A DNA stretch of 64,000 bases from Candidatus Fermentibacteraceae bacterium (GCA_027067855.1 JAMOUX010000044.1:3965-67964), one strand, 5' to 3'; shown: positions 16,381-41,220, counted from the stretch's first letter. The notes: generated by a model not told the origin, from the letters alone. Made by a program: numbers and translations.

Positions 16381-16390
16381 CCCGATGGTT

Positions 16391-18917: not shown

Positions 18918-19010
18918 ACTCCATCCACGCCCGGAATCATTGACAATAAGCCTTGCGGTATTCTATCATTTTCATTGCCGTGGTACCACTTTCCCCGGAA
19001 AGACCGGTCG

Positions 19011-20022: not shown

Positions 20023-20130
20023 GCGGCCCCGCATCCTCACAGGTTTTGAACTCCCAGCCGTACAGAACAACGGGAAAGCGGGGAGAATATCGAAACGCGG
20101 AAAACACATACGAATGAAGCAACTGTTTTT

Positions 20131-20646
20131 TTAATGCATTTCGGAGCGGTGCAAGCCTGTTATAACGCTATAAAGCAGTTCCGGCAGGTATTCCAGCACA
20201 TTTTGAACTTCCGGCGAAAGTGGCGCTGCAAACTCGAGGTTCGAAGGCTGAACGGCAAGTAGAAAAACGGGGGCGTCCGTCTCCCGCTCAATCCTTTCCA
20301 TGACCAGGGCCGGTGAAAGGGAATGGGTCGTGAAACCATTACCGGACGCGATATCCTCTTTTCCCAGGATCTCGACGGAACCCGGTTCCCTTCCAAGGTG
20401 AACGGCATCCACGATGACCACCGTATCCGGGTTCATCCTTTTCACGACTCCCACGCAATTCTCGGGCACCGTTCCCGCATCTACCGCGGGCATTCCGATT
20501 ACCGACAGTCTTTCGACCAATTCGGGTCCTATGGCATCGTCACCCCTGAGAATGTTTCCGACGCCCAGGAAAACAACCTTCCCGCGGAAGTACTTACCGA
20601 TGTCACTCGCCAAGTCACCATGCTCCGGGCGTAACTCACCGGTCAT
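20131..20646 (-). CDS. hycI: Hydrogenase maturation endopeptidase (HycI-like)
   Basis: GVGNILRGDDAIG, AGTVPEN, IVDAV, TTHSL. Confidence 0.88.
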   Translation of the reverse strand: MTGELRPEHGDLASDIGKYFRGKVVFLGVGNILRGDDAIGPELVERLSVIGMPAVDAGTVPENCVGVVKRMNPDTVVIVDAVHLGREPGSVEILGKEDIASGNGFTTHSLSPALVMERIERETDAPVFLLAVQPSNLEFAAPLSPEVQNVLEYLPELLYSVITGLHRSEMH

Positions 20647-20696
20647 AACGTTTACTCATTCCGGGGTTATGCAGCAGAAAATACGGTGAATCGTTG

Positions 20697-21317
20697 CTAT
20701 TCGTCTTCGTACGTGGTCGTCTTCCTTCGACACTCGGCGCAAAGCACTTTGATCCTGTCGGAACGCCACTTGTCGGGGTGAACCGGTTCGAGGTTGTTAT
20801 CCGCAAGGCCCAATTCACGAAGTCTCGACAGGTAAAGCGTGGGATTCGAAAAAGACAGTTCTCCCACCATTCGGGCAAGCCAGAGCAGGTGATCCTTGGT
20901 GGCTACCACCGTACCGCATATCTCGCAAAGCTGCAGTTCCTTCTCTATCGTCTCGTACGCTTTGCTCCTGTCGAAGTAGGAGAGTTCCCACTTGTTGCCG
21001 AGGACTATGGCTTTATCGTCGGATTCCCTTATGCACGCATCCTGGCATACTCCGCAGAAAATACAGTCATCCGTGTAGTGAATCATCACCCTCTTGGGAA
21101 CGTCCACGCCTTCGAGCACGTCCTCGTGGGCGATGGCCGAGGACGGACAAGCCTCCTCGCACGAAAGACAACCCAGGCACTTGTCCCGGTTGAATTCCGG
21201 TTGTCCCCTGAAATTGGGATGGGGAACGTGCGGTTCGACAGGAAATTTAGACGTGTACGGCCCCTTGATCACTGCTTTTACAGCTTCGGCCAATTCTCTA
21301 AGTTTTGGATACCTCAT
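20697..21317 (-). CDS. Group 4 hydrogenase ferredoxin subunit (NuoI/MbhN-like)
   Basis: GPYTSKFP...FRGQP, CLGCLSCEEACP, CIFCGVCQDAC, plus extra CEICG and CAEC. Confidence 0.85.
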   Translation of the reverse strand: MRYPKLRELAEAVKAVIKGPYTSKFPVEPHVPHPNFRGQPEFNRDKCLGCLSCEEACPSSAIAHEDVLEGVDVPKRVMIHYTDDCIFCGVCQDACIRESDDKAIVLGNKWELSYFDRSKAYETIEKELQLCEICGTVVATKDHLLWLARMVGELSFSNPTLYLSRLRELGLADNNLEPVHPDKWRSDRIKVLCAECRRKTTTYEDE

Positions 21318-21352
21318 ATCACCATCCGTAATAATTCGCTGGCGGCCCTTAC

Positions 21353-21691
21353 CTATGCCTCACCTTCATTATCCTCAGCATAACTGTCGACCACGCTCTT
21401 TTCCCACAGCCTGATTCCGGACCTGTGCGCCCCCCTGGAAATCGCGTGGGCCGAAACCGGTGACGTCAGCACCAGGAATACGATGGTTATCAATGCCTTG
21501 ACTCCGGTTTCAGTAAACCCTCCGGAAGCCAGGAAGACGCCAAAGAGAATACTGCAAGTCCCCAAGGTGACACATTTCGTCGCCGACTGCAGTCGGTTGT
21601 AAACATCGGGCAACCTCACCAGGCCCAGGCACCCCAGGACATCGAACGCCAGGCCCACTCCAATGAAAAACATTCCTATGTTGTCAATCAT
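21353..21691 (-). CDS. mrpG: Mrp antiporter subunit G (MbhC-like)
   Basis: GLVRLPDVYNRLQSATK; TSPVSAHAISRGA. Confidence 0.9.
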   Translation of the reverse strand: MIDNIGMFFIGVGLAFDVLGCLGLVRLPDVYNRLQSATKCVTLGTCSILFGVFLASGGFTETGVKALITIVFLVLTSPVSAHAISRGAHRSGIRLWEKSVVDSYAEDNEGEA

Positions 21692-22055
21692 CGAAACTTT
21701 TTCCTTCCAGGTACTTTGAAAGAGCCAGAGTTCCAATGAAGCTCTGAAGGCCCCAGGCGATGCCGATATCGATGTACCAGGAACGACCGGTCGCTATGCT
21801 CAGAACTGCGCAAAGACCTACTATCAGGATACCGAAAATATCTATGGCGACTATCCTGTCCGCGGCCGTCGGACCTCTCGTAACCCTGAACAGTACCATG
21901 AGGGAAGCCAATATCAGGATGTAGACCACCCTTCCCACGAAACCTATGTGAGTCGGGTTGTTTTCAAAGAATACACTCCTGAACGGCAGGGCGATCACCA
22001 AGCCCATCAGGACCAGCAAAACTATCGTACCCAGGATCCATCTGCCAAATATCAT
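21684..22055 (-). CDS. mrpF: Mrp antiporter subunit F (MbhB-like)
   Basis: RVTRGPTAADRIVAID; FIGTLALSKYL. Confidence 0.88.
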   Translation of the reverse strand: MIFGRWILGTIVLLVLMGLVIALPFRSVFFENNPTHIGFVGRVVYILILASLMVLFRVTRGPTAADRIVAIDIFGILIVGLCAVLSIATGRSWYIDIGIAWGLQSFIGTLALSKYLEGKSFDD

Positions 22056-22567
22056 CGTTCTACCGCTTTTTCTTCGAAAATCTTTTTGAGCATCGGTTCG
22101 AACCTGCTGCCTATTTCCTTGAAGGTGGTTTCAGGATCGGTTCCCTTTACGTTTATCCAATGGATATAGAGTATACCGGCATCCTTATCTATGTCCACGG
22201 TAAGTGTACCCGGGGTAAGGGTTATGGAATTGGCGAGAAAAGTCAATCCGGTATCGGATTCGAGGCTGGTTTTCAATCTCACTATTCCCGGCCTTATGGG
22301 CAGGGAGGGATGTATTACCCTGTACGCCACGTCGAAGTTGGCCTTCATCAGCTCCCACACAAAGACCGGCACGTACCAGAAGAGAAAGTAGAAAACTCTG
22401 ATCGGGTTGAAAAGCAAGTGAGGCCGCGTCATGAAGATGGAGCCCATGATGGAGGCGACCAGGATGGAAACCAGTGCGCCGGCCACCATTTGCTGAGTAT
22501 CCGGCACCCACGTGAAAATACACCAGACAGCGAAAGCGAAGATGAACATCATTATTCTGCTCTTCAT
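22052..22567 (-). CDS. mrpE: Mrp antiporter subunit E (MbhA-like)
   Basis: ANFDVAYRV...IRPGIV; LANSITLTPGTLTVD. Confidence 0.9.
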   Translation of the reverse strand: MKSRIMMFIFAFAVWCIFTWVPDTQQMVAGALVSILVASIMGSIFMTRPHLLFNPIRVFYFLFWYVPVFVWELMKANFDVAYRVIHPSLPIRPGIVRLKTSLESDTGLTFLANSITLTPGTLTVDIDKDAGILYIHWINVKGTDPETTFKEIGSRFEPMLKKIFEEKAVER

Positions 22568-22568
22568 C

Positions 22569-24062
22569 TTACACCCCACCCATCCCGATAAGTACCCTTA
22601 CCGCCGGCGACAGGAACATCTTCCGTACCTGGGGCAACAACACCAATCCACCAAGTATGCACGCCAGAGCCAGTATGATAAGGGAAACCCGCATAAGAAG
22701 CGGGACCTCTTTTATCCCGGCGAGTTTCTCCTTCAACTCTCCGAGAAAGGCGTAGCGAGTGATCCTGAACACGTAAACTATGGTGATGATGCTCATCAAG
22801 GCCGCCCAGGCGGCCAACTTCATGTGATGCGCCTGTACCGCCGCTACGATAATCACCAGCTTACTCCAGAATCCCGCAAAAGGCGGTATTCCGGCAAGAG
22901 ACATGGCACCGGCAAGAGCGGTGCCGCCGGTAACGGGCATCTTCCTGTTCAACCCGCCCATTTCCTTCATGTTCCTCGTCCCGGTCGAGTATTCCACGGC
23001 GCCCGAAGCCAGGAAAAGCAGGGATTTGAACATAGAGTGGTTGAAAAGGTGGAACAAGGCTCCCATTACGCCCAGCGGTGTTCCTATACCGAATCCCAGC
23101 ATTATGTAACCCACCTGGCTGATGGAGCTGTACGCGAGCAGTCTCTTCATGTCCCACTGGCGAAGAGCCACCAGTGCTCCGACTCCCATGGATATCGCGG
23201 CGAGCACCAGGAGGATAATGGAAACCTGGTGAGGAAAACCGAAAACGTCAAAGAAGATCCTTGCGATGGTGTAGACTCCCAGGGCCTTTATCAATACGCC
23301 GGACAGCATCGCCGAAATCGGCGCCGGGGCCGATGGGTGGGCATCGGGAAGCCATGCATGGAAGGGAACCAGGGCCGCCTTCAGACCGAAACCCGTCAGG
23401 AGCAATCCGAAAACGAGATATACGAGCCCGCTGTAATGGGTGCCGCTGAGAATCTCTCTCATATCACCCATGTTGAGCGTTCCCGTGGATGCGTAGAGAA
23501 ATACCACCGCCAGAAGAATCAAGAGGGAAGCCATACCCCCCATAACCGCGTACTTGAAGGATGCCTCCAGTTCCCTCTTTCCGACCCCGAACGCCACCAG
23601 CGCGTAGCTTGCTATCGATGCGATTTCTATGAACACGTACATGTTGAACATGTCACCGGTTATCAGCACTCCGTTCATACCGGCAAGCATAAGAAGAAAG
23701 AGGGTGTAGAACTGCCATCTTCCCGTATACCTCTTCATATAGCCGACGGCGTATATCGAAACCCACAGAGCGACGAAGTTCACTATCGCCAACATGAAGA
23801 CGGTGAATCCGTCCAATACCAACCGGATCCCCACCACCTTGCCCATAACCTCGGGAAAACTTCCCCATCCGCCCACGTTAACCGCAAAGGAAGCGCCCGG
23901 AGCCGTATCCAAAATAAAGTGAAGCGAAAGGCAGAAAGAAAACAGGGACGCGAGAACGCCCAGGAGATCGGGTATCCATCCCAGTCTTTTGAAAAGCGCC
24001 GCCAAGAATGCCCCCGCAAGCGGAACAGCAACGAAAAGAGGTATCATACCTTCGTTAATCAT
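22569..24062 (-). CDS. mrpD: Mrp antiporter-like subunit D (MbhH-like)
   Basis: DMFNMYVFIEI; KAALVPFHAWLPDAHPSAP; KRLLAYSSISQ. Confidence 0.9.
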   Translation of the reverse strand: MINEGMIPLFVAVPLAGAFLAALFKRLGWIPDLLGVLASLFSFCLSLHFILDTAPGASFAVNVGGWGSFPEVMGKVVGIRLVLDGFTVFMLAIVNFVALWVSIYAVGYMKRYTGRWQFYTLFLLMLAGMNGVLITGDMFNMYVFIEIASIASYALVAFGVGKRELEASFKYAVMGGMASLLILLAVVFLYASTGTLNMGDMREILSGTHYSGLVYLVFGLLLTGFGLKAALVPFHAWLPDAHPSAPAPISAMLSGVLIKALGVYTIARIFFDVFGFPHQVSIILLVLAAISMGVGALVALRQWDMKRLLAYSSISQVGYIMLGFGIGTPLGVMGALFHLFNHSMFKSLLFLASGAVEYSTGTRNMKEMGGLNRKMPVTGGTALAGAMSLAGIPPFAGFWSKLVIIVAAVQAHHMKLAAWAALMSIITIVYVFRITRYAFLGELKEKLAGIKEVPLLMRVSLIILALACILGGLVLLPQVRKMFLSPAVRVLIGMGGV

Positions 24063-24415
24063 CCCCTCAACTCCCGCATCCTCGTTATGTCAAAAGTGCC
24101 GTACTTGCCGTAGAGTCTTATGGCCAGGGCTATCATAAAAGCAGTGGTTGCAAGTCCTATCACTATGGACGTGAGAACCAGTGCGTGGGGCAGTGGATCC
24201 ACCATGACTTCTGGAAGTATCTCGCCGCGGTTCGGAGAAAAGATGGCGGCCCTGCCGCCGGCCTTGTAGGCCACCATCACCAGGAAAAGATTGACAGCGT
24301 ACTCGGCTATGATGATACCAAGAATTATCTTGATGATGTTCTTCTTGGAGAGTATGGCGAAGATACCGATGCAGAAAAGTACCAGGCAAAGTACGTATGG
24401 CATATACGCGTTCAT
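24059..24415 (-). CDS. mrpC: Mrp antiporter subunit C (MbhG-like)
   Basis: KKNIIKIILG; VDPLPHALVLTSIVIG. Confidence 0.9.
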   Translation of the reverse strand: MNAYMPYVLCLVLFCIGIFAILSKKNIIKIILGIIIAEYAVNLFLVMVAYKAGGRAAIFSPNRGEILPEVMVDPLPHALVLTSIVIGLATTAFMIALAIRLYGKYGTFDITRMRELRG

Positions 24416-24867
24416 TTCTTCTCCGCTTCGAATTTCTGCGCTGCAATGAGAGTCAGAAAGATTCCGAACAGCCCCGCGCCCACTTTCAAAGCTATCGCTA
24501 TGTTCTCCAGCGGGATGATGCCTGCGCTGACGAGTTCGCCGGGTTCTCCGTCGGGATGCATGAAGTTCTTGAAGAATATCCCGTACTTCATGCCTATGAG
24601 GGCCAGGGCCAGGAACAACAAGGCTCCCATGGCCTCTATAACTCCGGTTCCCTCCTTGGAAAGAATACCGGAGGATACCCGTTTACCGAACGCAAGGTCC
24701 AGGTTTATGAAGGAGAGGGCGATTATCACTCCCCCGGCAAAACCTCCACCTGGAGTAATATGACCGTGCAGAACCACGTAAACTCCGTACAGCAGTATCA
24801 ATCCGACAGTAAGCCTGGTCACCGTCTTGACGATGACGGACATTCCCCGTTCCCGCTCTTTACTCAT
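24412..24867 (-). CDS. mrpB: Mrp antiporter subunit B (MbhF-like)
   Basis: HGHITPGGGFAGG. Confidence 0.88.
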   Translation of the reverse strand: MSKERERGMSVIVKTVTRLTVGLILLYGVYVVLHGHITPGGGFAGGVIIALSFINLDLAFGKRVSSGILSKEGTGVIEAMGALLFLALALIGMKYGIFFKNFMHPDGEPGELVSAGIIPLENIAIALKVGAGLFGIFLTLIAAQKFEAEKK

Positions 24868-25402
24868 CGTTCTCCTGCAAATCCTTCTTCCTGCCCATTT
24901 TTCTCATCACGGTGAGAACCCCCACAACCGCCGTGAAAAGCACCGTGGCCTCTCCAAGGGTATCGTAAGCCCTGTAATCCAGAATCACCGAAGTCACGAC
25001 GTTCATCGCCCCGGTGCCCTCGAGCGCATTCAGAGGATAAAACCTGGAAACCGCCATGAGAGGTTCACCGAACGGCGGCATGCCACTTTTGAAAATCAGT
25101 ACCCCGGCATAAGTAGTCAGCACGAGGAAGATAAACGCCACGAATGCCCCGAACGGCCTGTTTCCCAGGAACTTCGATGCTATGTCCCTGTGAAGCGTGG
25201 CCCTGATCAACAATATCACCGCCGCTATTTCCACCACCAACTGCGTAAGAGCCACGTCGGGAGCTTTCAACAGGAGGAACACGACGGAAAGCCCCAATCC
25301 CACTACTCCCACGGCCACTACCGCGGAAAGCAGGTTCTTTACTTCAACGGCTATAACGGCTCCCGCAATCATCAGGCCGAGCAGAACGTACAACTCAATC
25401 AT
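24860..25402 (-). CDS. Fused MbhD/MbhE-like subunit (MrpA C-terminal domains)
   Basis: KAPDVALTQLVVE and NVVTSVILDYRAYDTLGE. Confidence 0.85.
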   Translation of the reverse strand: MIELYVLLGLMIAGAVIAVEVKNLLSAVVAVGVVGLGLSVVFLLLKAPDVALTQLVVEIAAVILLIRATLHRDIASKFLGNRPFGAFVAFIFLVLTTYAGVLIFKSGMPPFGEPLMAVSRFYPLNALEGTGAMNVVTSVILDYRAYDTLGEATVLFTAVVGVLTVMRKMGRKKDLQENDE

Positions 25403-25420
25403 AATATTCCCAACACCCCG

Positions 25421-27115
25421 TCAAACAAGCACTACGCACAACACCACGAGACCCGCCAGGAACCACAGGAAGTACCTCGAAAGTACCCCGTTGTGCATGA
25501 ACGATAAAATTATTCCGAAAGCACGAGCCGTTTTCTGCAGCACCTCGTAGAGATCGAAGAACTGTTTTTCGGCCAGGGAATACATGCTTTTCAGAAAACC
25601 AAGGTTCTTTATCGTACGGTAGAACTCGACGCCGGACACCCGCATATCCGGGTGATCCTCCAGGGTTTCGCCCCCCACGAAGGGAGCTACCTCCCTGGCG
25701 TTTTTGAGAGTTCCCGCCATGTACACCAGGTAGCCGGCCAGGAAACCCAATATCATCACGACGGCTACTATCCCCGAATGCCATATACCGGGCATGGCGA
25801 ACCCGGGCCCGATCTCGGGTCTGAAGTAATCATCGAAGGGAATTTTCCAGGCCAGTATTCCAAGTACGATGCATAGAAACGAAAGAACCGCCAGGGGAAT
25901 CATCGTGGAGAAGTTTATCTTGCCGATCTTCCTCATGGCCTTTTCGGACAATTCGGAGGGTTGGCCCAGGAAAATGGCGTGAACAAGTTTCATGAAGCTC
26001 GCGAGAGTCAGGGCGCTTCCCAGCATGGCCGCCACGAGCCACACTGCCCAGAGTCTTCCCCCGCTTTCGAGAATACCGTGGTACAGCATCCATTTAGATG
26101 CGAAACCGTTGAAGGGGGGAACACCGGATATCGAAAGCGAGCACACCAGGAAAGCGGCAAAGACCAGAGGCATCTTTTTGGCAAGCCCGCCCAGCTTCGA
26201 CAGGTCGGAAGTACCGGTCACTCTTTCCACTTCCCCGCCGGCCATGAAAAGCCCCGTCTTGTATATGGTATTGTTGAACATGTGAAAGAGAGCGCCAGCG
26301 ATTCCCACCGGATTCCCGGTTCCTATTCCGAGAACCATGTACCCTACCTGGCTTACCGCGTGGTAACCCAGAAGTTTCTTGAAATCATGCTGTACCAGCG
26401 CCATCATCACGGCCGCCATGATGGTTATGCTGCCCAGCGCCATCAGTACGGTATTCATGGCCTGGTTCATGACGAAGACCTCCAGGGTCACCTTCGCCAG
26501 GAAATAGATACCCAGTATCTTGTCCAATGAAGCCGGAAGAAACGCCGTAACCGGAACGGGAGCGTTACGGGCGGTTTCGGGCAGCCAGGTATGGAACGGC
26601 ATGGCGCCGGCCTTCGCGAAAGCGGCCGATGCAAGGCAGAGGTACGCTATCACCGCTCCGGTGCTGTTGAGTTTAATGCCCAGATTACCGATCGGCAACC
26701 TGAAAAGTCCTTCCAGCCCGGTTCCGCCGTCATAACGTATACTCCATATAAGCACGATGCCCAGCAGTAATAAAACATCCGTACCACCTATTATCGCCAG
26801 GGCTTTTCCCGCCGCGTCCGGGGTTCCATCACCCCGTCCGAAGCCTATGAGCAAGTAGAGCATGAAACCGATAAATCCCCATAAGACCATGAGCACCATG
26901 AATGTAGTGGAGAAAAGAACGCCGAGGGTCGCGACGTACGTAAGCACCAGGTACGTGTAATATTTCCAGAGCCCCTTGACCCCCTTCATGTGTTTGAAAG
27001 AGTAGATCATGGTCAAAACGAAAAACATCGTTGCGAACACGGCACACGTGCAGGAAAGAGGAGTTACTGCAAAATAACCGTCGGGGTTCCGCAGAACGTC
27101 CATCAGGTAACTCAT
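25421..27115 (-). CDS. Second antiporter-like subunit (NuoL/MrpA/HyfB-like)
   Basis: KAGAMPFHTWLP, KKLLGYHAVSQVGY, PPFNGFASKW; C-terminal lateral-helix-like segment ending HNGVLSRY. Confidence 0.85.
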   Translation of the reverse strand: MSYLMDVLRNPDGYFAVTPLSCTCAVFATMFFVLTMIYSFKHMKGVKGLWKYYTYLVLTYVATLGVLFSTTFMVLMVLWGFIGFMLYLLIGFGRGDGTPDAAGKALAIIGGTDVLLLLGIVLIWSIRYDGGTGLEGLFRLPIGNLGIKLNSTGAVIAYLCLASAAFAKAGAMPFHTWLPETARNAPVPVTAFLPASLDKILGIYFLAKVTLEVFVMNQAMNTVLMALGSITIMAAVMMALVQHDFKKLLGYHAVSQVGYMVLGIGTGNPVGIAGALFHMFNNTIYKTGLFMAGGEVERVTGTSDLSKLGGLAKKMPLVFAAFLVCSLSISGVPPFNGFASKWMLYHGILESGGRLWAVWLVAAMLGSALTLASFMKLVHAIFLGQPSELSEKAMRKIGKINFSTMIPLAVLSFLCIVLGILAWKIPFDDYFRPEIGPGFAMPGIWHSGIVAVVMILGFLAGYLVYMAGTLKNAREVAPFVGGETLEDHPDMRVSGVEFYRTIKNLGFLKSMYSLAEKQFFDLYEVLQKTARAFGIILSFMHNGVLSRYFLWFLAGLVVLCVVLV

Positions 27116-28296
27116 CTTATCCCCATCCTCCGTTTCAGCCGTTCCGTTTTTTCACGACTGAGCCTTACCAGGTCGGTTCCGTCATACAGCATCTTCCCCT
27201 TCGTATCCTTTACAGCCAGTCTCTCGGTACAGCAGTAACACGGATCTATCGCGGCCAGGATGATGGTGGCGTCCGAAATGGTTTCACCTTTAACCGTAGC
27301 CTTGTAGGTGGGAAGATTCATGAATGTCGGGGCTCTGACCTTATGCCTCAACGGCCTGTTCGTACCGTCGCTCTTCACAAAATGAAAGGTTTCTCCCCTG
27401 GGAGCCTCAATGTGACCGATACCCTCGCCGGGAGGCACGTCCTCTATGTTCGCGTCGATCTCACCCTCCGGCAACCTGTTAAGGCAATATTTCAGGATTT
27501 TGACCGATTCGAACATCTCCAGGATCCGAATCACGGCCTTGTCGAAAACATCACCGTTCCCGGTGACTATCATCTCCCATTCCATTTCCCGGTAGGCTCC
27601 GTAGGGCGAATCCTTCCTGACATCCCTGGCGACTCCGGATGCACGGGACGTGGGTCCCAGGGCGCTGAACTCTATCGCTTCCTGGTAGGTGAGCACCCCA
27701 ACGCCCTTCAGCCTGGCGTGAAGCACCGGATCGTCCAGGACGGCTTTCTTCAGCATATCGAGAGTGGGGAGTATGGAATCTATCTTCTTGAGGCATACTG
27801 GAATATCCTCTTTTTTGATATCCCGTCGGACACCTCCGGGTTTGAACATGGCGTAGTTATTCCTGTTTCCCGAGAGGATTTCCATCACGTCCAGTATTTC
27901 CTCCCTGAGCTTCCAGGCCCACATATAAACCGTATTGTAACCCAGGAAGTGCCCCGCAAGGCCCAGCCACAGCAAGTGAGAATGAATTCTTTCGGCTTCC
28001 GCTATTATCGTTCTTATGTACTTCGCTCGTACGGGAACTTCCATGGGGAATATGTCCTCCACGGCCCTGGTATAGGCGAAGGGATGGCTCGTGGAGCAGA
28101 TACCGCAAATCCTTTCCACTACGAAGGTGCTGTTCTCGAAAGTCTTGCTCTCCGAAAGCTTCTCTATCCCCCTGTGGTTGTATCCTATTCTTACGTCTAT
28201 GTCCACCACGGTCTCACCCTCCACCGTGAGGGTGAAAAACTCCGGCTCTTCCTGCAGAGGATGGTACGGGCCTATGGGTATTACGGTTCTGCCCAT
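27112..28296 (-). CDS. Group 4 [NiFe]-hydrogenase large subunit
   Basis: GYNHRGIEK, L1 ERICGICS, EAPRGE, L2 DPCYCCTER, followed by a C-terminal extension. Confidence 0.93.
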   Translation of the reverse strand: MGRTVIPIGPYHPLQEEPEFFTLTVEGETVVDIDVRIGYNHRGIEKLSESKTFENSTFVVERICGICSTSHPFAYTRAVEDIFPMEVPVRAKYIRTIIAEAERIHSHLLWLGLAGHFLGYNTVYMWAWKLREEILDVMEILSGNRNNYAMFKPGGVRRDIKKEDIPVCLKKIDSILPTLDMLKKAVLDDPVLHARLKGVGVLTYQEAIEFSALGPTSRASGVARDVRKDSPYGAYREMEWEMIVTGNGDVFDKAVIRILEMFESVKILKYCLNRLPEGEIDANIEDVPPGEGIGHIEAPRGETFHFVKSDGTNRPLRHKVRAPTFMNLPTYKATVKGETISDATIILAAIDPCYCCTERLAVKDTKGKMLYDGTDLVRLSREKTERLKRRMGIR

Positions 28297-28297
28297 A

Positions 28298-28783
28298 TCA
28301 GATCCCCCTCGTTCTGTCGGCCGATTCGTCCCATTCTTCGTAATCCTGCCTCAGCGGGTAGACGCATTCCGGCCAGTTGTCGGCGAGCAAAAGCCTCCTG
28401 GGATCCGGATGGCCGGTGAATGTGATTCCCAGGAGTTCGCTCATCTCCCTTTCGATCCAGTTGCACGCCTCTATCTCCCGGGCCAGGGAATCCACCACCG
28501 GGTTCTCCCTGTCCAGAAACACCCTGAGGGAAATAATGAGGTTCACGTCCTCGACTATGAAATGGTAGAGAATCTCTATGTTCGGAGGCAGGTCCGTAGC
28601 CGACGCTATGTTGAACCTGGCACCCATGTTCCTGAAAAGGTAGGTACCTATCCCGACTATCGATTCGGGTTTTATCGTCACGTACAACCTGCTGCCGGAC
28701 TTGTCGTAGTAATCGATGATATCATCGTTGAAACGGCTCGTGAAATCCAGCAGTACTTCTTCTCTAGTCATTTCCACTGCCAA
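28298..28783 (-). CDS. NuoC/MbhK-like hydrogenase subunit
   Basis: NWIEREMSELLGITFTGHPDPRRLLL...YPLR. Confidence 0.88.
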   Translation of the reverse strand: MAVEMTREEVLLDFTSRFNDDIIDYYDKSGSRLYVTIKPESIVGIGTYLFRNMGARFNIASATDLPPNIEILYHFIVEDVNLIISLRVFLDRENPVVDSLAREIEACNWIEREMSELLGITFTGHPDPRRLLLADNWPECVYPLRQDYEEWDESADRTRGI

Positions 28784-29192
28784 CCTTCTCGATGAGTTTC
28801 ACCACTCCGGCAATGATCGCCTCCGGTTTTGGAGGACATCCCGGAATGTAGACGTCGACCGGGATTATCTTGTCCAACGGCACCGGGCAGTTGTAACTGT
28901 CCTTGAAAATGCCCCTGGAAGCGGTACACGTTCCCACGGCAACCACCAGGCACGGTTTTGGAACCTGCTCCCAAAGTTCCTTCATCCGCTCCACGGACAT
29001 CCTGTTGCACGAACCGGTAACCAGCAGGACGTCGGCATGCTTGATACTTCCCGCAAGGAGCATACCGAATCTCTCTATATCGAACCTGGGCGTGAGGCAA
29101 TCCAATATCTCGATGTCGCAATTGTTGCAGCTGCCCGTAGAGAGGTGGAACACCCAGGGGGATTTCAGAAGAGCTTTCAACTTCAGGCTCAT
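28764..29192 (-). CDS. Group 4 hydrogenase small subunit (NuoB/MbhJ-like)
   Basis: GSCNNCDIE, HADVLLVTG, VGTC, PVDVYIPGCPPKPE. Confidence 0.92.
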   Translation of the reverse strand: MSLKLKALLKSPWVFHLSTGSCNNCDIEILDCLTPRFDIERFGMLLAGSIKHADVLLVTGSCNRMSVERMKELWEQVPKPCLVVAVGTCTASRGIFKDSYNCPVPLDKIIPVDVYIPGCPPKPEAIIAGVVKLIEKVGSGND

Positions 29193-29217
29193 GGTCGTTA
29201 CGGCTCCACCCTTCCTT

Positions 29218-30132
29218 CTATATACCGTTCAGGGCCAGCACCACGGCGATCACCGCCAGGATCGTCACCGGACCCCAGAAGAACCTTACGGCCTGATCTA
29301 TGCGGACCCTGGGATTCGTATTCCGAATCACGGTGAGAATCGCCACTATCCCCACGTATTCCAGGAGCGTACGGAAAAAACCCGGACCACTGAAACGAAG
29401 ACCGCCGAAAAACAATACCAGGAGGAAAAAAGGCAGCGTGAACAGCAACATGCTCCTGGTAAGCTTGAAAATTCCCAAAGCCGGACCGGAATACTCGACC
29501 AACGGACCTTCCACTATCTCGGTTTCAGCTTCGGGAATATCGAAAGGAACCATGGCCAGCTTGGCCTGTATGCACAGGATCGCCACCGCCAGCGCTATCA
29601 TCCCCGAAATATGACCCGCGGTCATAAAGGACTTCTGACTCTCGATTATGTCACCCAATCCGAAACTTCCGGCCCAGATCACGGGCACCAGGATGGCCAG
29701 GATGAAAGGTAACTCATAGGCCACTACCAGTTTCATCTCCCTCGAAGCTCCCAGGCTCGCCAGGGGGTTCCCCGAGGCAAAGCCGCCGAGGATTATACTC
29801 AGCGAGGGTATCGTCAGAAGGTAGACGGCCACTATCAAGTCGCCCATGAATCCCGCCGCATGCAACTGGTTCGCCCAGAGAACAGTGGAAGCCGATACGA
29901 CTCCTGCAAAACCCAGCAACGGCGCGAACAGGAACATTTCCCTGGCTGCTCCGGCGGGTATCACGGTCTCCTTGCCCAGCAGCTTGACGATATCTATGAG
30001 AGGCTGGAGAAAAGGAGGACCCACCCGGTACTGTACCCTGGCGGTCACCTTTCTGTCTATCCAACTGGTCACCAGGCCCATCACGATGGTGACGACGAGT
30101 CCGAAAACCAGGAAGTAAAGCAAGAACATCAT
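29218..30132 (-). CDS. NuoH/MbhM-like membrane subunit
   Basis: DRKVTARVQYRVGPP, PFDIPEAETEIVEG, NPRVRIDQ. Confidence 0.92.
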   Translation of the reverse strand: MMFLLYFLVFGLVVTIVMGLVTSWIDRKVTARVQYRVGPPFLQPLIDIVKLLGKETVIPAGAAREMFLFAPLLGFAGVVSASTVLWANQLHAAGFMGDLIVAVYLLTIPSLSIILGGFASGNPLASLGASREMKLVVAYELPFILAILVPVIWAGSFGLGDIIESQKSFMTAGHISGMIALAVAILCIQAKLAMVPFDIPEAETEIVEGPLVEYSGPALGIFKLTRSMLLFTLPFFLLVLFFGGLRFSGPGFFRTLLEYVGIVAILTVIRNTNPRVRIDQAVRFFWGPVTILAVIAVVLALNGI

Positions 30133-30677
30133 GCCCTGCTCCTGTCCCAGTGGGTGGAATGTACCACGAGCCTTTCACCGAGCCCGAATACGTTCTCTCC
30201 CTCTATTTCACCCTCTACCACCGACAGGGCCCCGTACGGGCACGTGGGGACGCAGGTGTATTCCCCGCGGCCCCGGCAATAGTCGCAGATGTCGGCCATC
30301 CCGGGAAGAATCTCGGGGTATATGGTTCCATACGGACAAGCATGGGAACAAGACCTGCAGGAGACGCACCTCATGGTATGCCTTACAAGAACGCCGTCCT
30401 CGCGTTTTTCGATGGCATCCTTGGGACAGACGTTCACGCAATGGGGCTCCAGGCACCTGCGGCAAACCAGGGCATACGTGGCCAGTTCGATCAGCGAGAT
30501 GATGCCGTTGTTGTAGGGATGGAAAAAGTAGCTGCATTCAACCACGCAACCCCCGCACTTGTCGGAACTGCATATGTCCAGGTCTATTAAGAGCCTTCTG
30601 CCGTCCTTTCTTTTCCTGACGGCATTCATATCTCCATGAAGCTGGTCTATGCTTGTCCCGTTCCTATCCATGATCAC
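30129..30677 (-). CDS. Multi-[4Fe-4S] ferredoxin-like electron-transfer protein
   Basis: CRRCLEPHCVNVCP, CVSCRSCSHACP, CDYC...CVPTCP. Confidence 0.85.
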   Translation of the reverse strand: MIMDRNGTSIDQLHGDMNAVRKRKDGRRLLIDLDICSSDKCGGCVVECSYFFHPYNNGIISLIELATYALVCRRCLEPHCVNVCPKDAIEKREDGVLVRHTMRCVSCRSCSHACPYGTIYPEILPGMADICDYCRGRGEYTCVPTCPYGALSVVEGEIEGENVFGLGERLVVHSTHWDRSRA

Positions 30678-31493
30678 CTATTCCCAAATGCCGGGATAGT
30701 CCCGTATCATGTCGTAAGTAAAGACCGGGCCGTCCTTGCAGCAATAGTACGGCCCTATGCGGCAATGTCCGCATTTACCGAAACCGCATGACATGTTCTT
30801 TTCCATGGACAGGTATATATTCCTGTCTTTTACTCCGAGTTCCTGGAGCTTAAAAGTAGCGAATTTCATCATTATCGGCGGCCCGCACACCACCGCCCTC
30901 GCCCTGGAAAAATTGACGTCGATGTCATCCATGATCGTGGTAACGACTCCCACCGGGCCGTTCCAGGCCTCGTCCGCCTGGTCCACGGTAAGCTTCATGT
31001 CCAGGTCGCTCCTTTTCATCCAGTCCTCGAGTTCACTTCTATAGAGCAATTCACCGGGATTCCTGCAGCCGGCACGGTAAACCAGTTTGTCTATCTGGTC
31101 ACGCATGTGAAAGAGCCCGTACATCAAGGTCCTTATCGGTGCGAGGCCCACTCCGCCGCCCACTACGATGACATCCTGGCCGATGAATTTCGTCATGGGG
31201 TAACCCTTGCCCAGGGGTCCCCTCAGTCCCACCGTGTCTCCCGGTTTCAAGTCGTGTATGGCCTCCGTAACCTTCCCGACTTTCACGATGGTTATTTCCA
31301 TCGTTTCTTTTATCTCCGAGTCCGAAGACGGCGTGAAAGGAGCCTCACCCACGCCGGGAACGGACATTTCCATGAACTGCCCGGGCCTGAACGTGAGTTT
31401 CTCCCCGGGTTTGAGGAGGAACGTTTTTATGGTAGGCGTCTCCGTCGTAACCTTGAGAACCTCGGTCTTTATGGATCGATAAGGATTCTTCAT
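30678..31493 (-). CDS. FAD/NAD(P)-binding [2Fe-2S] oxidoreductase (AsrB / FlxA / sulfhydrogenase gamma-like)
   Basis: PGQF...GEAPF, RGPLGKG, GGGVGLAP, CGPPIMM, MSCGFGKCGHC...CKDGPVF. Confidence 0.9.
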   Translation of the reverse strand: MKNPYRSIKTEVLKVTTETPTIKTFLLKPGEKLTFRPGQFMEMSVPGVGEAPFTPSSDSEIKETMEITIVKVGKVTEAIHDLKPGDTVGLRGPLGKGYPMTKFIGQDVIVVGGGVGLAPIRTLMYGLFHMRDQIDKLVYRAGCRNPGELLYRSELEDWMKRSDLDMKLTVDQADEAWNGPVGVVTTIMDDIDVNFSRARAVVCGPPIMMKFATFKLQELGVKDRNIYLSMEKNMSCGFGKCGHCRIGPYYCCKDGPVFTYDMIRDYPGIWE

Positions 31494-31496
31494 TTG

Positions 31497-32522
31497 CTAT
31501 ACTTCCAGCCTCGCAAGAACTTCCCTGATGTCGATCTTCCCCGGGCACGCGGCTATGCATCTTCCGCATCCCGTACAGGCGATCTCCCCGGCCACCTCCG
31601 GGAAATAGTTGAACTTCTTGTCGAACCTGTTTCGCAGCCGCATCCAGAGCCTCGCCCTGGGATTCTCCCCTCCGGCGACCCTGGCAAAGTCCTTTATCAT
31701 GCAGGAATCCCACACCCTGAAACGTGCGAACTTATCATCGGTCTTCTGTTCGTAGAGAAGGAAACAATGGCATGTGGGGCAGACGGTATTGCAAGCGCCG
31801 CATTCCACGCAATTCCGGGAAGATTCCTCCCAAACCTCCATGTTCTCGTACTGCTTGGTGACTATTCTTTCCAGCCTGCGGTAGGCGGGAATGTTCTTCT
31901 CGGCCACCCGGACTTCCACTTCTTTTTTGACGGCCTTACGGTTTTCCTTCACCGCCCCGTCCAGCTTGACATCTTCCACATTTCTGAAAAGAAGACTGTA
32001 CTCTTCCACCAGTTTTTTACCCTTCCCGCTGCCCAACTCGACCACGAAACCACCGTCCACGGGTGAAAGGTTAATGTCGAATTGAGAATCGGGCCAGGGA
32101 TTCAGGTTGACGGCGGTACAGAAGCAATTCTCTCCCACCGCCGTACAATCCGAGGAAATTATCAGGCCGTCCCTGCGGGCCTTCATGTAGGTAGGATCAC
32201 CGAATTCCTCGTCTATGAAAACGAAATCCAGTATCTTGAACCCTTTAAGGTCGCAGGATTTTACGCCGACCATGCAGGGCGGTTTGTCATTTTTTCTTGG
32301 AATATCGGGTTTGAAATCCTCGGCGACCTTCTCTCTCCCCAGGAAGTAGAAAGACTTAAGAGGATCGAAAGATCTTATCCCGCCGACGGCGTAATCGGTT
32401 CCAGGCCCCCGGTACCTGGTATAGCCCGCGCCTCTCGCTGTATTAACCGGAACGTATACGTGATAATCTCCCGAAAGGGAATCTAGAAGCTCATCAAGAT
32501 CGGCATGCTTCAGAAAAATCAT
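31497..32522 (-). CDS. [4Fe-4S] protein, AsrA / FlxD / sulfhydrogenase beta-like
   Basis: GVKSCDL, CFCT, CVECGACNTVCPTCHCF, RVWDSC, CTGCGRCIAACP. Confidence 0.88.
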   Translation of the reverse strand: MIFLKHADLDELLDSLSGDYHVYVPVNTARGAGYTRYRGPGTDYAVGGIRSFDPLKSFYFLGREKVAEDFKPDIPRKNDKPPCMVGVKSCDLKGFKILDFVFIDEEFGDPTYMKARRDGLIISSDCTAVGENCFCTAVNLNPWPDSQFDINLSPVDGGFVVELGSGKGKKLVEEYSLLFRNVEDVKLDGAVKENRKAVKKEVEVRVAEKNIPAYRRLERIVTKQYENMEVWEESSRNCVECGACNTVCPTCHCFLLYEQKTDDKFARFRVWDSCMIKDFARVAGGENPRARLWMRLRNRFDKKFNYFPEVAGEIACTGCGRCIAACPGKIDIREVLARLEV

Positions 32523-32528
32523 GAAAAA

Positions 32529-32557
32529 GAAATAGGAACCCGATTCCGCTTTGTCAA
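32529..32557 (-). promoter_or_regulatory. Putative sigma70 promoter of the hydrogenase operon (possibly leaderless)
   Basis: TTGACA-N17-TATTTC-N6-ATG. Confidence 0.4.
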
Positions 32558-32658
32558 GTGGGTATTGCATATCACCGTCGATTGATCACCATCATCTTGC
32601 ATGGCAACATGATATATAACCCTTGACAATCCGGTGTTACGTCAAGTCCTTTACGGTA

Positions 32659-39744: not shown

Positions 39745-39747
39745 TCT

Positions 39748-41190: not shown

Positions 41191-41220
41191 GTATCCACTG
41201 TGAAGAAAGGAGGGACGGCC

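What the first reader, a model, noticed from the sequence alone, without database searches (positions are those of the whole stretch)
27112..32522. Group 4 membrane hydrogenase operon led by an NAD(P)H-diaphorase-like module
Seen: AsrA-like, AsrB-like (FAD/NAD, [2Fe-2S]) and ferredoxin genes abut or overlap the nuoH/B/C/D-like hydrogenase core (gaps of 0-3 nt up to nuoH). No HdrABC, AsrC or group 3b alpha/delta subunits are present. Established: Mbh/Ech enzymes normally take electrons from ferredoxin, formate or CO, while this flavoprotein pair normally serves soluble sulfhydrogenase, Asr or Flx-Hdr. Inference: an ion-translocating NAD(P)H:H+ oxidoreductase. It might use ion-motive force to push NADH electrons uphill to H2, or conserve energy from H2 to NAD+, which would be a hydrogenase analogue of complex I with a different N-module.
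Basis: partly seen in the sequence, partly recalled or inferred. Interest (0 to 1): 0.75.

Follow-up and report, generated by a model that had tools for sequence, protein, structure and literature searches.

The report
Hun membrane hydrogenase operon, Fermentibacterota copy
This is an intact copy of the already published but never purified "Hun" operon, a membrane-bound, ion-pumping nickel-iron hydrogenase whose first two genes look built to handle NAD(P)H, an idea that is plausible but still untested.

Summary
On the minus strand, an AsrA/HydB-like gene, an AsrB/HydG-like FAD/NAD/[2Fe-2S] gene and a four-cluster HycB/CooF-like ferredoxin abut NuoH/B/C/D-like genes. The NuoD-like protein is a true [NiFe] large subunit.

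The finding covers only the first 7 of 17 genes. The unit continues through a full Mrp-type module, the real NuoI-like subunit and a HycI protease, ending at 20131.

Gene for gene, and in its CGIC...CYCC nickel motif, it matches the 16-gene "Hun" operon (hunA-P) of Glass et al. (bioRxiv 10.1101/536078). Two genome surveys noted the same design.

The same layout followed the hunA-like gene in 63 of 80 related loci from over a dozen phyla. Sixteen loci are cut by contig ends and one is an orphan.

This scan has reported Hun operons on other DNA, including two Fermentibacteria copies, so this is a new member of a known, biochemically untested kind.

The published donor is ferredoxin. There is no such operator here. 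It remains inference.

The parts
32529..32557 (-). Promoter-like element just upstream of hunA: TTGACA (32557-32552), a 17-nt spacer, TATTTC (32534-32529), then 6 nt to the ATG at 32522
   Evidence: CTTGACAAA and CTATTTC are invariant in 10 of 10 aligned Fermentibacteria upstream regions. Coordinates were read. The consensus scan did not list it. Function is inferred.
31497..32522 (-). hunA: AsrA / sulfhydrogenase-beta-like multi-[4Fe-4S] protein
   Evidence: Pfam Fer4_22 5.9e-31. Best solved relative is P. furiosus sulfhydrogenase I beta, 9nez_B, 3.5e-39. It scores below the NCBIfam cut-offs for ShyB, HydB and AsrA. 15 Cys are invariant in 19 orthologues. It is the only Fer4_22 gene in the genome.
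30678..31493 (-). hunB: AsrB / sulfhydrogenase-gamma-like FAD / NAD(P)H / [2Fe-2S] flavoprotein
   Evidence: Pfam FAD_binding_6, NAD_binding_1 and DHODB_Fe-S_bind. Best solved relative is 9nez_C, 1.7e-53. GGxGxxP and four Cys are invariant in 20 sequences.
30129..30677 (-). hunC: HycB/CooF/HydN-like ferredoxin with four predicted [4Fe-4S] clusters
   Evidence: Pfam Fer4_11. PDB relatives are HDCR HycB4 at 3.1e-12 and FHL HycB at 2.5e-5. 16 Cys are invariant in 19 orthologues.
29218..30132 (-). hunD: NuoH/MbhM-like membrane anchor
   Evidence: Pfam NADHdh 2.5e-69.
28764..29192 (-). hunE: NuoB/MbhJ-like hydrogenase small subunit
   Evidence: Pfam Oxidored_q6 5.8e-29.
28298..28783 (-). hunF: NuoC/MbhK-like subunit
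   Evidence: Pfam Complex1_30kDa 2.6e-24.
27112..28296 (-). hunG: [NiFe] large subunit with RICGICSTSH and DPCYCCTER motifs and a C-terminal extension
   Evidence: Translation. Best solved relative is MbhL, 6cfw_L, 9e-91. The CGIC/CYCC signature matches HunG as described.
25421..27115 (-). hunH: NuoL/MbhH-like antiporter subunit
   Evidence: Pfam Proton_antipo_M 2.6e-51.
24860..25402 (-). hunI: MbhD/MbhE-like (MrpA C-terminal part)
   Evidence: Pfam MbhD and MbhE.
24412..24867 (-). hunJ: MnhB/MrpB-like
   Evidence: Pfam MnhB 1.2e-24.
24059..24415 (-). hunK: MrpC/NuoK-like
   Evidence: Pfam Oxidored_q2 1.4e-25.
22569..24062 (-). hunL: MrpD-like antiporter subunit
   Evidence: Pfam Proton_antipo_M 4.4e-73.
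22052..22579 (-). hunM: MrpE-like
   Evidence: Pfam MNHE 6.9e-45.
21684..22055 (-). hunN: MrpF-like
   Evidence: Pfam MrpF_PhaF 1.9e-17.
21353..21736 (-). hunO: MrpG-like
   Evidence: Pfam PhaG_MnhG_YufB 7.2e-24.
20697..21317 (-). hunP: NuoI/MbhN/HycF-like two-cluster ferredoxin subunit
   Evidence: NCBIfam formate hydrogenlyase Fe-S subunit 7e-24 and NuoI 6e-17. PDB HycF, 7z0s_F, 1e-16 and MbhN, 6cfw_N, 3.2e-9.
20131..20646 (-). hycI-type hydrogenase maturation protease
   Evidence: Pfam HycI 8.7e-17. TIGR00142 hycI 1.9e-29.

Best explanation
The locus is a Fermentibacterota copy of the Hun operon (hunA-P plus hycI).

What it encodes:
- An Mbh-like group 4 [NiFe] hydrogenase core: HunD, E, F, G and P.
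- A complete Mrp-type H+/Na+ module: HunH to HunO.
- A three-protein electron-input arm: HunA, B and C.

Most likely electron path (inferred):
1. NAD(P)H binds HunB.
2. Electrons pass through its FAD and [2Fe-2S] cluster.
3. They cross the [4Fe-4S] clusters of HunA.
4. They cross the four clusters of HunC.
5. They cross the two clusters of HunP and the cluster of HunE.
6. They reach the Ni-Fe site of HunG.

The whole reaction would be reversible and coupled to ion translocation. NADH to H2 is uphill by about 18 kJ/mol under standard conditions and turns downhill below roughly 70 Pa H2. The enzyme would therefore do one of two things:
- Spend ion-motive force to vent NAD(P)H electrons as H2.
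- At high H2, reduce NAD(P)+ while pumping ions.

Shown here: gene content, cofactor motifs, operon conservation, and the absence of alternative partners in this genome.

Inferred: physical attachment of HunABC to the hydrogenase, NAD(P)H as substrate, direction, and ion coupling.
For: Identity as Hun:
- The 16 genes follow the order and homologies that Glass et al. give for hunA-P, including the HunG motif CGIC...CYCC.

A true hydrogenase:
- All four Ni-Fe cysteines are present, with a C-terminal extension and a HycI protease.
- hypA, hypB, hypF and a hypE-like gene lie next to the operon.
- The closest solved large subunit is MbhL, at 9e-91.

Linkage of the input arm to the hydrogenase:
- In 13 of 15 Fermentibacteria-like loci the same order holds as far as the DNA goes. 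The other 2 are cut by contig ends.
- In 63 of 80 loci found with a hunA-like alignment, Mbh genes follow on the same strand. 15 loci end too early. One more (L083) ends just after hunC. One (L066) is an orphan.
- L064 seemed to lack hunB, but the gene is interrupted by a masked stretch.
- L074 carries a separate beta/gamma pair next to a group 3-type hydrogenase immediately upstream of its hun operon. The hun pair is therefore a dedicated paralogue.

NAD(P)H handling:
- HunB aligns over its full length with the NADPH-binding gamma subunit of sulfhydrogenase I, at 1.7e-53.
- GGxGxxP, the APFTPSS flavin stretch and the four [2Fe-2S] cysteines are invariant or nearly so in 20 sequences from about 15 phyla.

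Wiring analogous to formate hydrogenlyase:
- HunC resembles HycB and HunP resembles HycF.

No other client for HunAB in this genome:
- hunA is the only Fer4_22 gene.
- The only other AsrB-type gene is pyrK, next to pyrD.
- There is no AsrC.
- The second NiFe enzyme is an Mvh-Hdr type with its own subunits.

Rex-type operators (TTGTGAA-N4-TTCACAA; consensus recalled from memory):
- With up to 3 mismatches, they lie within 460 nt around the hunA start in 23 of 76 loci. 8 of these have at most 1 mismatch.
- The background is 19 matches in 510,836 nt elsewhere in the same loci.
Against: - No biochemical or expression data exist for this or any Hun enzyme in the library searched.
- The only paper that names the operon proposes ferredoxin as donor.
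- This window has no Rex-type operator near hunA, even at 4 mismatches. A Rex homologue is encoded elsewhere in the genome.
- The three Fermentibacteria Rex-type hits are one and the same 3-mismatch match, which overlaps the promoter-like TTGACA.
- The genome already has other routes for NADH. It has an Rnf cluster and a [FeFe] hydrogenase beside a NuoF-like gene. A further NADH outlet is therefore not required.
- NADH versus NADPH cannot be told from sequence. An Arg after the second strand of the NAD domain aligns with one in the sulfhydrogenase I gamma subunit, which is weak evidence.
- Co-transcription is inferred from gene spacing only.
Confidence: 0.55

Rival explanations
1. Ferredoxin-driven Hun, the published model. 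HunABC only collect electrons from reduced ferredoxin and pass them to the Ni-Fe site. The enzyme works like P. furiosus Mbh, with H2 evolution pumping ions, and the NAD(P)-binding fold of HunB is vestigial or regulatory.
For: - Glass et al. propose this.
- Genome papers on Hyd24-12 and Acetothermia also assume a ferredoxin-dependent membrane hydrogenase.
- The closest solved core is the ferredoxin-dependent MBH.
- Ferredoxin to H2 is downhill and fits an ion pump.
Against: - A vestigial site would not keep GGxGxxP, the flavin stretch and the [2Fe-2S] cysteines invariant across about 15 phyla.
- Mbh itself needs no such arm.
- In formate hydrogenlyase, the HycB-type subunit links a dedicated dehydrogenase to the HycF-type subunit (recalled from the literature). 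Here, HunC matches HycB and HunP matches HycF only by sequence.
- Rex-type operators precede hunA in other lineages.
Confidence: 0.2
2. A two-donor (confurcating or dual-entry) enzyme. Reduced ferredoxin and NAD(P)H both feed the same cluster chain, so the exergonic ferredoxin branch helps pull NAD(P)H electrons to H2. Alternatively, the complex also acts as an ion-coupled ferredoxin:NAD(P)+ oxidoreductase with H2 as a valve.
For: - Sugar fermentation yields both carriers.
- The arm carries many clusters: 15 invariant Cys in HunA and 16 in HunC.
- The energetics of NADH alone are marginal (established redox potentials).
Against: - No bifurcating-type flavin site is recognisable. HunB resembles the simple gamma subunit of sulfhydrogenase I and PyrK.
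- The genome already has an Rnf cluster and a [FeFe] hydrogenase beside a NuoF-like gene.
Confidence: 0.12
3. Sulfur-linked enzyme. HunAB act as in a 'sulfhydrogenase', reducing polysulfide or elemental sulfur with electrons from H2 or the membrane complex.
For: - The closest solved relatives of HunA and HunB are sulfhydrogenase I subunits.
- The Hyd24-12 genome paper lists a 'sulfhydrogenase'.
Against: - HunG keeps all four Ni-Fe cysteines, unlike what is recalled for the sulfur-reducing Mbs/Mbx homologues.
- Nothing in the operon is sulfur-specific.
- The sulfur reductase activity of sulfhydrogenase is, from recall, not considered physiological.
Confidence: 0.05
4. HunAB belong to a soluble enzyme encoded elsewhere (Hdr/Mvh or Flx-like) and only share a promoter with the hydrogenase.
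For: The genome has an Mvh-Hdr locus on C13 and a second MvhD/HdrA-like locus on C41.
Against: - The hunA-B-C-D order, with abutting or overlapping genes, is kept in 63 of 80 loci across phyla.
- The two Hdr-type loci, as far as their domain content was read, are not next to hunAB and include no AsrA- or AsrB-type gene.
Confidence: 0.03

Closest known systems
Hun Ni-Fe hydrogenase-Na+/H+ antiporter supercomplex (hunA-P), Glass et al., bioRxiv 10.1101/536078 (passages read)
   Same: - 16 genes in the same order with the same homologies.
- HunAB are AsrAB-like, with no AsrC.
- The HunG motif is CGIC...CYCC.
- There is an Mrp-like module, and the NuoI-like subunit comes last.
- An optional molybdopterin-like gene lies between hunB and hunC in some lineages. 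I saw it in a Planctomycetota clade and one Krumholzibacteriota locus.
   Different: - The phylum is Fermentibacterota. The passages read list Atribacteria, Firmicutes, Omnitrophica, Elusimicrobia, Bacteroidetes and Kosmotoga. Figure 3A and Table S5 were not visible to me and may list more.
- The paper assumes ferredoxin as donor and does not mention FAD or NAD(P)H for HunB.
'Enigmatic' group 4 hydrogenase of Saganbacteria RX5A (Matheus Carnevali et al. 2019, PMC6349859; passages read) and the 'Mbh-Mrp-oxidoreductase type' of Elusimicrobia (bioRxiv 10.1101/765248; passages read)
   Same: Hydrogenase subunits, Mrp-like subunits, and cooF-like, asrA-like and asrB-like genes lie in one region. 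The function is stated as unknown.
   Different: Their version also has a molybdopterin oxidoreductase gene, which is absent here. Their supplementary figures were not seen.
Pyrococcus furiosus membrane-bound hydrogenase Mbh (PDB 6CFW; HydDB group 4d)
   Same: The MbhJKLMN-like core and the Mrp-like membrane module are shared. It is the closest solved large subunit, at 9e-91.
   Different: Mbh has no HunABC arm and takes electrons directly from ferredoxin. The gene order differs, and the L2 motif here is CYCC.
E. coli formate hydrogenlyase (PDB 7Z0S) and Mrp-linked formate/CO-respiring hydrogenases (HydDB 4a/4b)
   Same: The design is modular: a dehydrogenase, then a HycB/CooF-type polyferredoxin, then a HycF/NuoI-type subunit, then the hydrogenase.
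   Different: The donor module here is a flavoprotein pair of the sulfhydrogenase beta/gamma type. It is not FdhF or CooS.
Sulfhydrogenase I of P. furiosus (PDB 9NEZ; group 3b) and Salmonella AsrABC
   Same: HunA and HunB are homologues of the beta/gamma subunits (AsrA/AsrB).
   Different: There is no group 3 alpha/delta pair in the operon and no AsrC in the genome. All NCBIfam scores are below the family cut-offs.
Respiratory complex I
   Same: It has NuoB, C, D, H, I, K and L/M/N-type subunits and an NAD(P)H-type flavoprotein at the far end.
   Different: There is no NuoEFG. The NuoD-like subunit keeps the Ni-Fe ligands, and no quinone is involved. The flavoprotein belongs to the FNR/PyrK fold family, not the NuoF family.

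Membership tests
Hun operon (Glass et al.) | 16 genes hunA-P in the published order: AsrA-like, AsrB-like, ferredoxin, NuoH-like, small subunit, NuoC-like, large subunit, Mrp-like H to O, and NuoI-like last | tested here: met
   compared with the text read.
Hun operon (Glass et al.) | HunG nickel-binding motifs CGIC ... CYCC | tested here: met
   RICGICSTSH and DPCYCCTER in the translation. DPCYCC occurs in 36 and DPCYSC in 12 of 53 related large subunits; 5 were not captured.
Hun operon (Glass et al.) | HydDB class 4g for the large subunit | not testable with these tools
   HydDB is not on hand. Only the statement is available.
Hun operon (Glass et al.) | AsrC absent | tested here: met
   No NIR_SIR match in the 98.9%-complete genome.
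Mrp-Mbh hydrogenase (group 4d, P. furiosus type) | MbhJKLMN-like core plus Mrp-like subunits | tested here: met
Mrp-Mbh hydrogenase (group 4d, P. furiosus type) | Ferredoxin as direct donor, with no extra redox module | tested here: not met
   Three extra redox genes, hunABC, head the operon. The donor itself cannot be tested here.
Group 3b sulfhydrogenase | Alpha/delta hydrogenase dimer of group 3 encoded together with beta/gamma | tested here: not met
   The only other NiFe large subunit is in an Mvh-Hdr cluster on C13. The ShyB, HydB and HydG scores are far below cut-off.
Anaerobic sulfite reductase AsrABC | Sirohaem subunit AsrC, and AsrA/AsrB scores above the family cut-offs | tested here: not met
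   There is no AsrC. AsrA scores 133.5 against a cut-off of 323, and AsrB 221.8 against 288.6.
Respiratory complex I | NuoEFG N-module, and a NuoD without Ni-Fe ligands | tested here: not met
   No NuoE, F or G domain was found among the operon's proteins. The four NuoF-like genes of the genome lie on other contigs. The Ni-Fe cysteines are retained.
Rex regulon | Rex operator (TTGTGAA-N4-TTCACAA; consensus recalled) in the promoter region | tested here: not met
   No match near hunA, even at 4 mismatches. A Rex homologue is present on C37. The feature is met in other lineages: 8 of 76 loci have at most 1 mismatch.

The most novel reading that the evidence does not exclude
Hun is not a ferredoxin-driven Mbh, as published. 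It is an ion-translocating NAD(P)H:H+ oxidoreductase, in effect a complex I-like machine that ends in a hydrogenase instead of a quinone site and uses an unrelated FNR/PyrK-type flavoprotein as its N-module. It would let many anaerobes, and some lineages usually thought aerobic, exchange NAD(P)H and H2 against the membrane potential. If so, metabolic models of Fermentibacterota, Atribacterota, Omnitrophota, Planctomycetota and others would need correcting.
Probability: 0.5. Interest if true: 0.7.

Novelty: new member of a known kind. Interest (0 to 1): 0.35.

Why it matters
The operon is widespread. I found it in Fermentibacterota, Spirochaetota, Planctomycetota, Kiritimatiellota, Lentisphaerota, Verrucomicrobiota, Fibrobacterota, Latescibacterota, Gemmatimonadota, Actinomycetota, Pseudomonadota, Thermotogota, Bipolaricaulota and others.

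Genome-based metabolic models routinely book it as a ferredoxin-dependent, energy-conserving hydrogenase.

If its partner is NAD(P)H, three things change:
- the energy yield;
- the H2 threshold;
- the direction of H2 flux assigned to these organisms in digesters and sediments.

The enzyme would also be a natural example of a complex I-type pump with a non-homologous NAD(P)H module.

For this particular locus, the result is ordinary. It is one more intact copy of a published, untested operon.

Tried and rejected
- **RNA evidence for co-transcription:** no RNA holder was listed for window:27000-32700.
- **Docking of HunA with HunC:** Complex prediction answered that it was not available. Nothing was folded and the call was not repeated.
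- **Consensus promoter/terminator scan of 19000-33500:** promoter-like sites were not above shuffles (9 against 11.2). No convincing terminator was seen inside the operon. The conserved TTGACA element was not listed.
- **Rex operator, first try:** I used a wrongly recalled 6-nt spacer and got 0 matches. This was replaced by the 4-nt spacer.
- **AsrAB as part of a sulfite reductase:** rejected, because there is no AsrC.
- **HunAB as subunits of a group 3b enzyme elsewhere in the genome:** rejected. The other NiFe enzyme is of the Mvh-Hdr type.
- **The second AsrB-type gene on C36 as a possible partner:** it is pyrK, next to pyrD.
- **L064 as a hun operon without hunB:** rejected. The gene is interrupted by a masked stretch.
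- **L066, a Betaproteobacteria MAG:** a hunA-like gene with no Mbh genes within 9 kb and opposite-strand genes next to it. This is the single real exception and was not explained.
- **Methylocystis preprint and the two Ace Lake papers:** they concern other hydrogenases, or call Mrp-linked group 4g enzymes ferredoxin-dependent without noting the flavoprotein.
- **JBC review on complex I-like complexes:** no passage found with the terms NADH, NADPH, flavoprotein or modules describes such a module.
- **Literature searches for a biochemical study of this enzyme**: none found in the library. Subscription journals are not covered.

Full report
**1. What is in the sequence**

All relevant genes lie on the minus strand. 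From upstream to downstream they are:

| Coordinates | Product |
|---|---|
| 31497-32522 | AsrA/HydB-like Fe-S protein |
| 30678-31493 | AsrB/HydG-like protein with FAD-binding, NAD-binding and [2Fe-2S] domains |
| 30129-30677 | 182-aa Fer4_11 ferredoxin |
| 29218-30132 | NuoH-like |
| 28764-29192 | NuoB-like |
| 28298-28783 | NuoC-like |
| 27112-28296 | NuoD-like [NiFe] large subunit |
| 25421-27115 | NuoL/MbhH-like |
| 24860-25402 | MbhD/E-like |
| 24412-24867 | MnhB-like |
| 24059-24415 | MrpC-like |
| 22569-24062 | MrpD-like |
| 22052-22579 | MrpE-like |
| 21684-22055 | MrpF-like |
| 21353-21736 | MrpG-like |
| 20697-21317 | 206-aa NuoI/HycF/MbhN-like protein |
| 20131-20646 | HycI-type maturation protease |

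- Most later junctions are also overlaps or gaps of at most 50 nt.
- The NuoD-like protein carries RICGICSTSH near its N-terminus and DPCYCCTER near its C-terminus, followed by a 35-residue extension. It is therefore a real [NiFe] large subunit that needs proteolytic maturation, which fits the HycI gene.
- hypA and hypB lie convergently just downstream.
- hypF and a hypE-like gene lie a little further on.

**2. Closest relatives of the parts**

| Part | Closest solved relative | E-value |
|---|---|---|
| Large subunit | MbhL of the P. furiosus membrane-bound hydrogenase (6cfw_L) | 9e-91 |
| Large subunit | E. coli HycE | 1.1e-82 |
| First two proteins | Beta and gamma subunits of P. furiosus sulfhydrogenase I (9nez_B, 9nez_C) | 3.5e-39, 1.7e-53 |
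| 182-aa ferredoxin | HDCR HycB4 | 3.1e-12 |
| 182-aa ferredoxin | FHL HycB | 2.5e-5 |
| 206-aa protein | HycF | 1e-16 |
| 206-aa protein | MbhN | 3.2e-9 |

- Against NCBIfam, the first two proteins score below the cut-offs of ShyB, HydB, AsrA, AsrB and HydG.
- The 182-aa ferredoxin is of the HycB/CooF/HydN type.
- The peripheral arm is therefore laid out like that of formate hydrogenlyase or the CO- and formate-respiring Mrp-linked hydrogenases. In those, a donor module connects through a HycB-type polyferredoxin and a HycF-type subunit to the small and large subunits.
- Here the donor module is a beta/gamma-type flavoprotein pair.

**3. Organism and conservation**

- A search with the first protein returned 17 loci. 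Fifteen of them come from Candidatus Fermentibacteria/Aegiribacteria MAGs or unnamed MAGs, at 64-70% identity. The window therefore comes from a Fermentibacterota genome.
- In 13 of these 15 loci, the same gene order holds for as long as the DNA goes. The other two are cut by contig ends.
- A search with an alignment of six homologues returned 80 loci from many phyla. They fall as follows:

| Loci (of 80) | Outcome |
|---|---|
| 63 | Mbh genes follow the hunA-like gene on the same strand |
| 15 | The contig ends before they could appear |
| 1 (L083) | Ends just after the ferredoxin gene, because it carries an extra gene |
| 1 (L066, a Betaproteobacteria MAG) | An orphan hunA-like gene with opposite-strand neighbours |

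- L064 seemed to lack the flavoprotein gene, but the gene is there, interrupted by a masked stretch.
- L074, a Verrucomicrobia MAG, carries a second, more distant beta/gamma pair next to a group 3-type small and large subunit, directly upstream of its copy of this operon. The pair at the head of the membrane hydrogenase is thus a dedicated paralogue.
- In a Planctomycetota clade and one Krumholzibacteriota locus, a gene of about 586 aa for a degenerate molybdopterin-oxidoreductase-like protein sits between the flavoprotein and the ferredoxin genes. It is absent here.

**4. It is already in print**

- Matheus Carnevali et al. 2019 (PMC6349859; passages read) describe an 'enigmatic' Saganbacteria group 4 hydrogenase region. 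It has Mrp-like subunits, a molybdopterin oxidoreductase, cooF, asrA and asrB, which 'might compose an oxidoreductase module'.
- The Elusimicrobia preprint 10.1101/765248 (passages read) speaks of an 'Mbh-Mrp-oxidoreductase type' of unknown function.
- Notes of this scan on other genomes pointed me to Glass et al., bioRxiv 10.1101/536078, which I then read in passages.
- Glass et al. name a 16-subunit operon 'Hun' (hunA-P). Their description matches this locus on every point:
  - HunAB are similar to AsrAB, without AsrC.
  - HunEFGP form the hydrogenase.
  - HunD, H, I, L and K are proton-module-like, and HunI-O are Mrp-like.
  - HunG falls in HydDB group 4g and has the unusual motif pair CGIC-CYCC.
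  - A molybdopterin-domain gene lies between hunB and hunC in some MAGs.
- The paper lists Atribacteria, Firmicutes, Omnitrophica, Elusimicrobia, Bacteroidetes and Kosmotoga isolates as carriers.
- It proposes that HunABC accept electrons from ferredoxin. The words NADPH, FAD and flavin do not occur in its text, and NADH occurs only in 'NADH dehydrogenase'.
- Its figures and supplementary table were not visible to me, and neither were the supplements of the other two papers. They may already list Fermentibacteria copies.
- Searching for the Hun names found no other paper in the library.
- Seven further searches found no biochemical study. Subscription journals are not covered by the library.

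**5. Does the evidence favour NAD(P)H?**

*For*

- In an alignment of 19 operon-linked HunB proteins from about 15 phyla plus the group-3-linked paralogue, these features are invariant or nearly so:
  - the glycine-rich GGxGxxP stretch of the NAD(P)-binding domain;
  - the APFTPSS stretch of the flavin domain;
  - the four cysteines of the [2Fe-2S] site.
- HunB aligns end to end with the gamma subunit of sulfhydrogenase I. That enzyme is, from recall, the NADPH-linked hydrogenase of P. furiosus.
- HunA keeps 15 invariant cysteines and HunC keeps 16. That is enough for a long cluster wire.
- Within this genome:
  - hunA is the only Fer4_22 gene;
  - the only other AsrB-type gene is pyrK, beside pyrD;
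  - there is no AsrC;
  - the second [NiFe] enzyme is an Mvh-Hdr type with its own subunits.
- I tested the Rex lead from earlier notes myself, using a consensus recalled from memory.
  - Matches to TTGTGAA-N4-TTCACAA with up to 3 mismatches lie within a 460-nt region around the hunA start in 23 of 76 loci that have enough upstream DNA.
  - Eight of them have at most one mismatch. These include the nearest non-Fermentibacteria relatives, L027 and L028.
  - The background is 19 matches in 510,836 nt elsewhere in the same loci.

*Against*

- This window has no such site, even at 4 mismatches. A Rex homologue is encoded on another contig.
- The three Fermentibacteria matches are the same weak 3-mismatch hit on a conserved promoter-like element.
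- The genome already has an Rnf cluster and a [FeFe] hydrogenase beside a NuoF-like gene.
- Nothing has been measured.

**6. Mechanism and energetics (inference from established redox potentials)**

- With E0' of about -320 mV for NAD+/NADH and -414 mV for H+/H2, NADH-driven H2 formation costs about +18 kJ/mol under standard conditions.
- It breaks even near 70 Pa H2.
- It yields about 5 kJ/mol at 10 Pa and about 10 kJ/mol at 1 Pa.
- An Mrp-linked enzyme of this kind would therefore sit close to equilibrium, with three regimes:
  - At the H2 levels of a fermenting culture, it could use the ion gradient to push NAD(P)H electrons to H2.
  - At very low H2, it could conserve a little energy.
  - At high H2, it could reduce NAD(P)+ while pumping.
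It remains the best reading at about 0.55.

| Reading | Weight |
|---|---|
| NAD(P)H-linked, reversible, ion-coupled | about 0.55 |
| Published ferredoxin-only model | about 0.2 |
| Dual-donor or confurcating variant | about 0.12 |
| Sulfur-linked role | about 0.05 |
| Service to a soluble enzyme elsewhere | about 0.03 |

**7. Other points**

Homologues from other phyla begin at the equivalent methionine. The 48 nt of the longer ORF overlap a DNA element that is invariant in 10 of 10 aligned Fermentibacteria loci: CTTGACAAA, then a spacer, then CTATTTC 6-7 nt before the ATG. This looks like a -35/-10 pair with an almost leaderless transcript. That is inference.
- *Large-subunit tree.*
  - The tree used the window plus 49 of the 80 loci. 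Loci without a stop-free segment longer than 330 aa were left out. It was rooted at the midpoint only.
  - It puts the window in a Fermentibacterota clade (support 100/98).
  - That clade sits inside a 13-row clade with two Spirochaetota and two unclassified MAGs (100/100).
  - It lies apart from the Fibrobacterota and Latescibacterota copies.
  - This suggests lateral spread of the operon.
- *Steps that gave nothing.* Docking could not be run and no RNA runs were listed.

**8. Verdict**

- The locus is a new member (a Fermentibacterota copy) of a known, named, but biochemically untested operon.
- This scan has met the same operon repeatedly on other DNA.

Noticed in passing
window 32529-32557 (minus strand); same element in L001, L002, L004, L005, L009, L010, L011, L012, L015: CTTGACAAA and CTATTTC are invariant just upstream of the hunA ATG in 10 of 10 aligned Fermentibacteria loci. 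They are spaced like a -35/-10 pair, and only 6-7 nt lie between the second element and the start codon. This suggests a near-leaderless transcript or a regulator site.
   Followed up: partly
window 32623-32645 (minus strand): A perfect inverted repeat, CTTGAC-N11-GTCAAG, lies in the intergenic region upstream of the operon. It is not conserved in the other Fermentibacteria loci.
   Followed up: no
window 14219-20022: Hydrogenase maturation genes flank the 3' end of the operon. They are hypB (19297-20022, +), hypA (about 19011-19367, +), hypF (16602-18917, -) and an AIR-synthase-type, hypE-like gene (14219-15688, -). No hypC or hypD was identified between them.
   Followed up: partly
L069, L072, L075, L081-L085, L090, L092, L094-L096 (for example L081:10869-12629): A Planctomycetota clade and one Krumholzibacteriota locus carry an extra gene of about 586 aa between hunB and hunC. 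It encodes a degenerate molybdopterin-oxidoreductase-like protein. Where the large subunit is on the contig, its L2 motif is DPCYSC instead of DPCYCC. Thermotogota and Bipolaricaulota copies also have DPCYSC but lack the extra gene.
   Followed up: partly
Large-subunit tree: The Fermentibacterota HunG clade groups with Spirochaetota and unclassified MAGs at 76-82% identity. It does not group with other FCB phyla (Fibrobacterota and Latescibacterota, 64-65%). This hints at lateral transfer of the whole operon. In L029 (Spirochaetota), the Mrp-like genes are split off and lie divergently upstream.
   Followed up: partly
L061, L062, L071, L073, L091 and others: hun operons occur in MAGs labelled Gammaproteobacteria/Lysobacterales, Alphaproteobacteria and Gemmatimonadota. 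These lineages are usually regarded as aerobic, so the direction of the enzyme there (H2 uptake to NAD(P)H?) is an open question.
   Followed up: no
G000:C13:11867-20062 (L021 8867-17062): The Mvh-Hdr locus contains an extra 566-aa FAD_binding_2 flavoprotein and a 247-aa ferredoxin. They lie between the MvhG-like and MvhD genes.
   Followed up: no
G000:C41:11557-15523 (L098): A second Hdr-type locus has a DsrE-like protein, an MvhD domain with an N-terminal extension, and an HdrA-like flavoprotein.
   Followed up: no
L066:8956-10032: This is an orphan hunA-like gene in a Betaproteobacteria MAG chromosome, with no Mbh genes within 9 kb. It is the only real exception among the 80 loci.
   Followed up: partly
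window 32659-41316 (minus strand): Directly upstream of the operon lies a run of large TPR and lytic-transglycosylase (SLT, LysM) genes, including a 1229-aa TPR protein. They appear unrelated to the hydrogenase.
   Followed up: no
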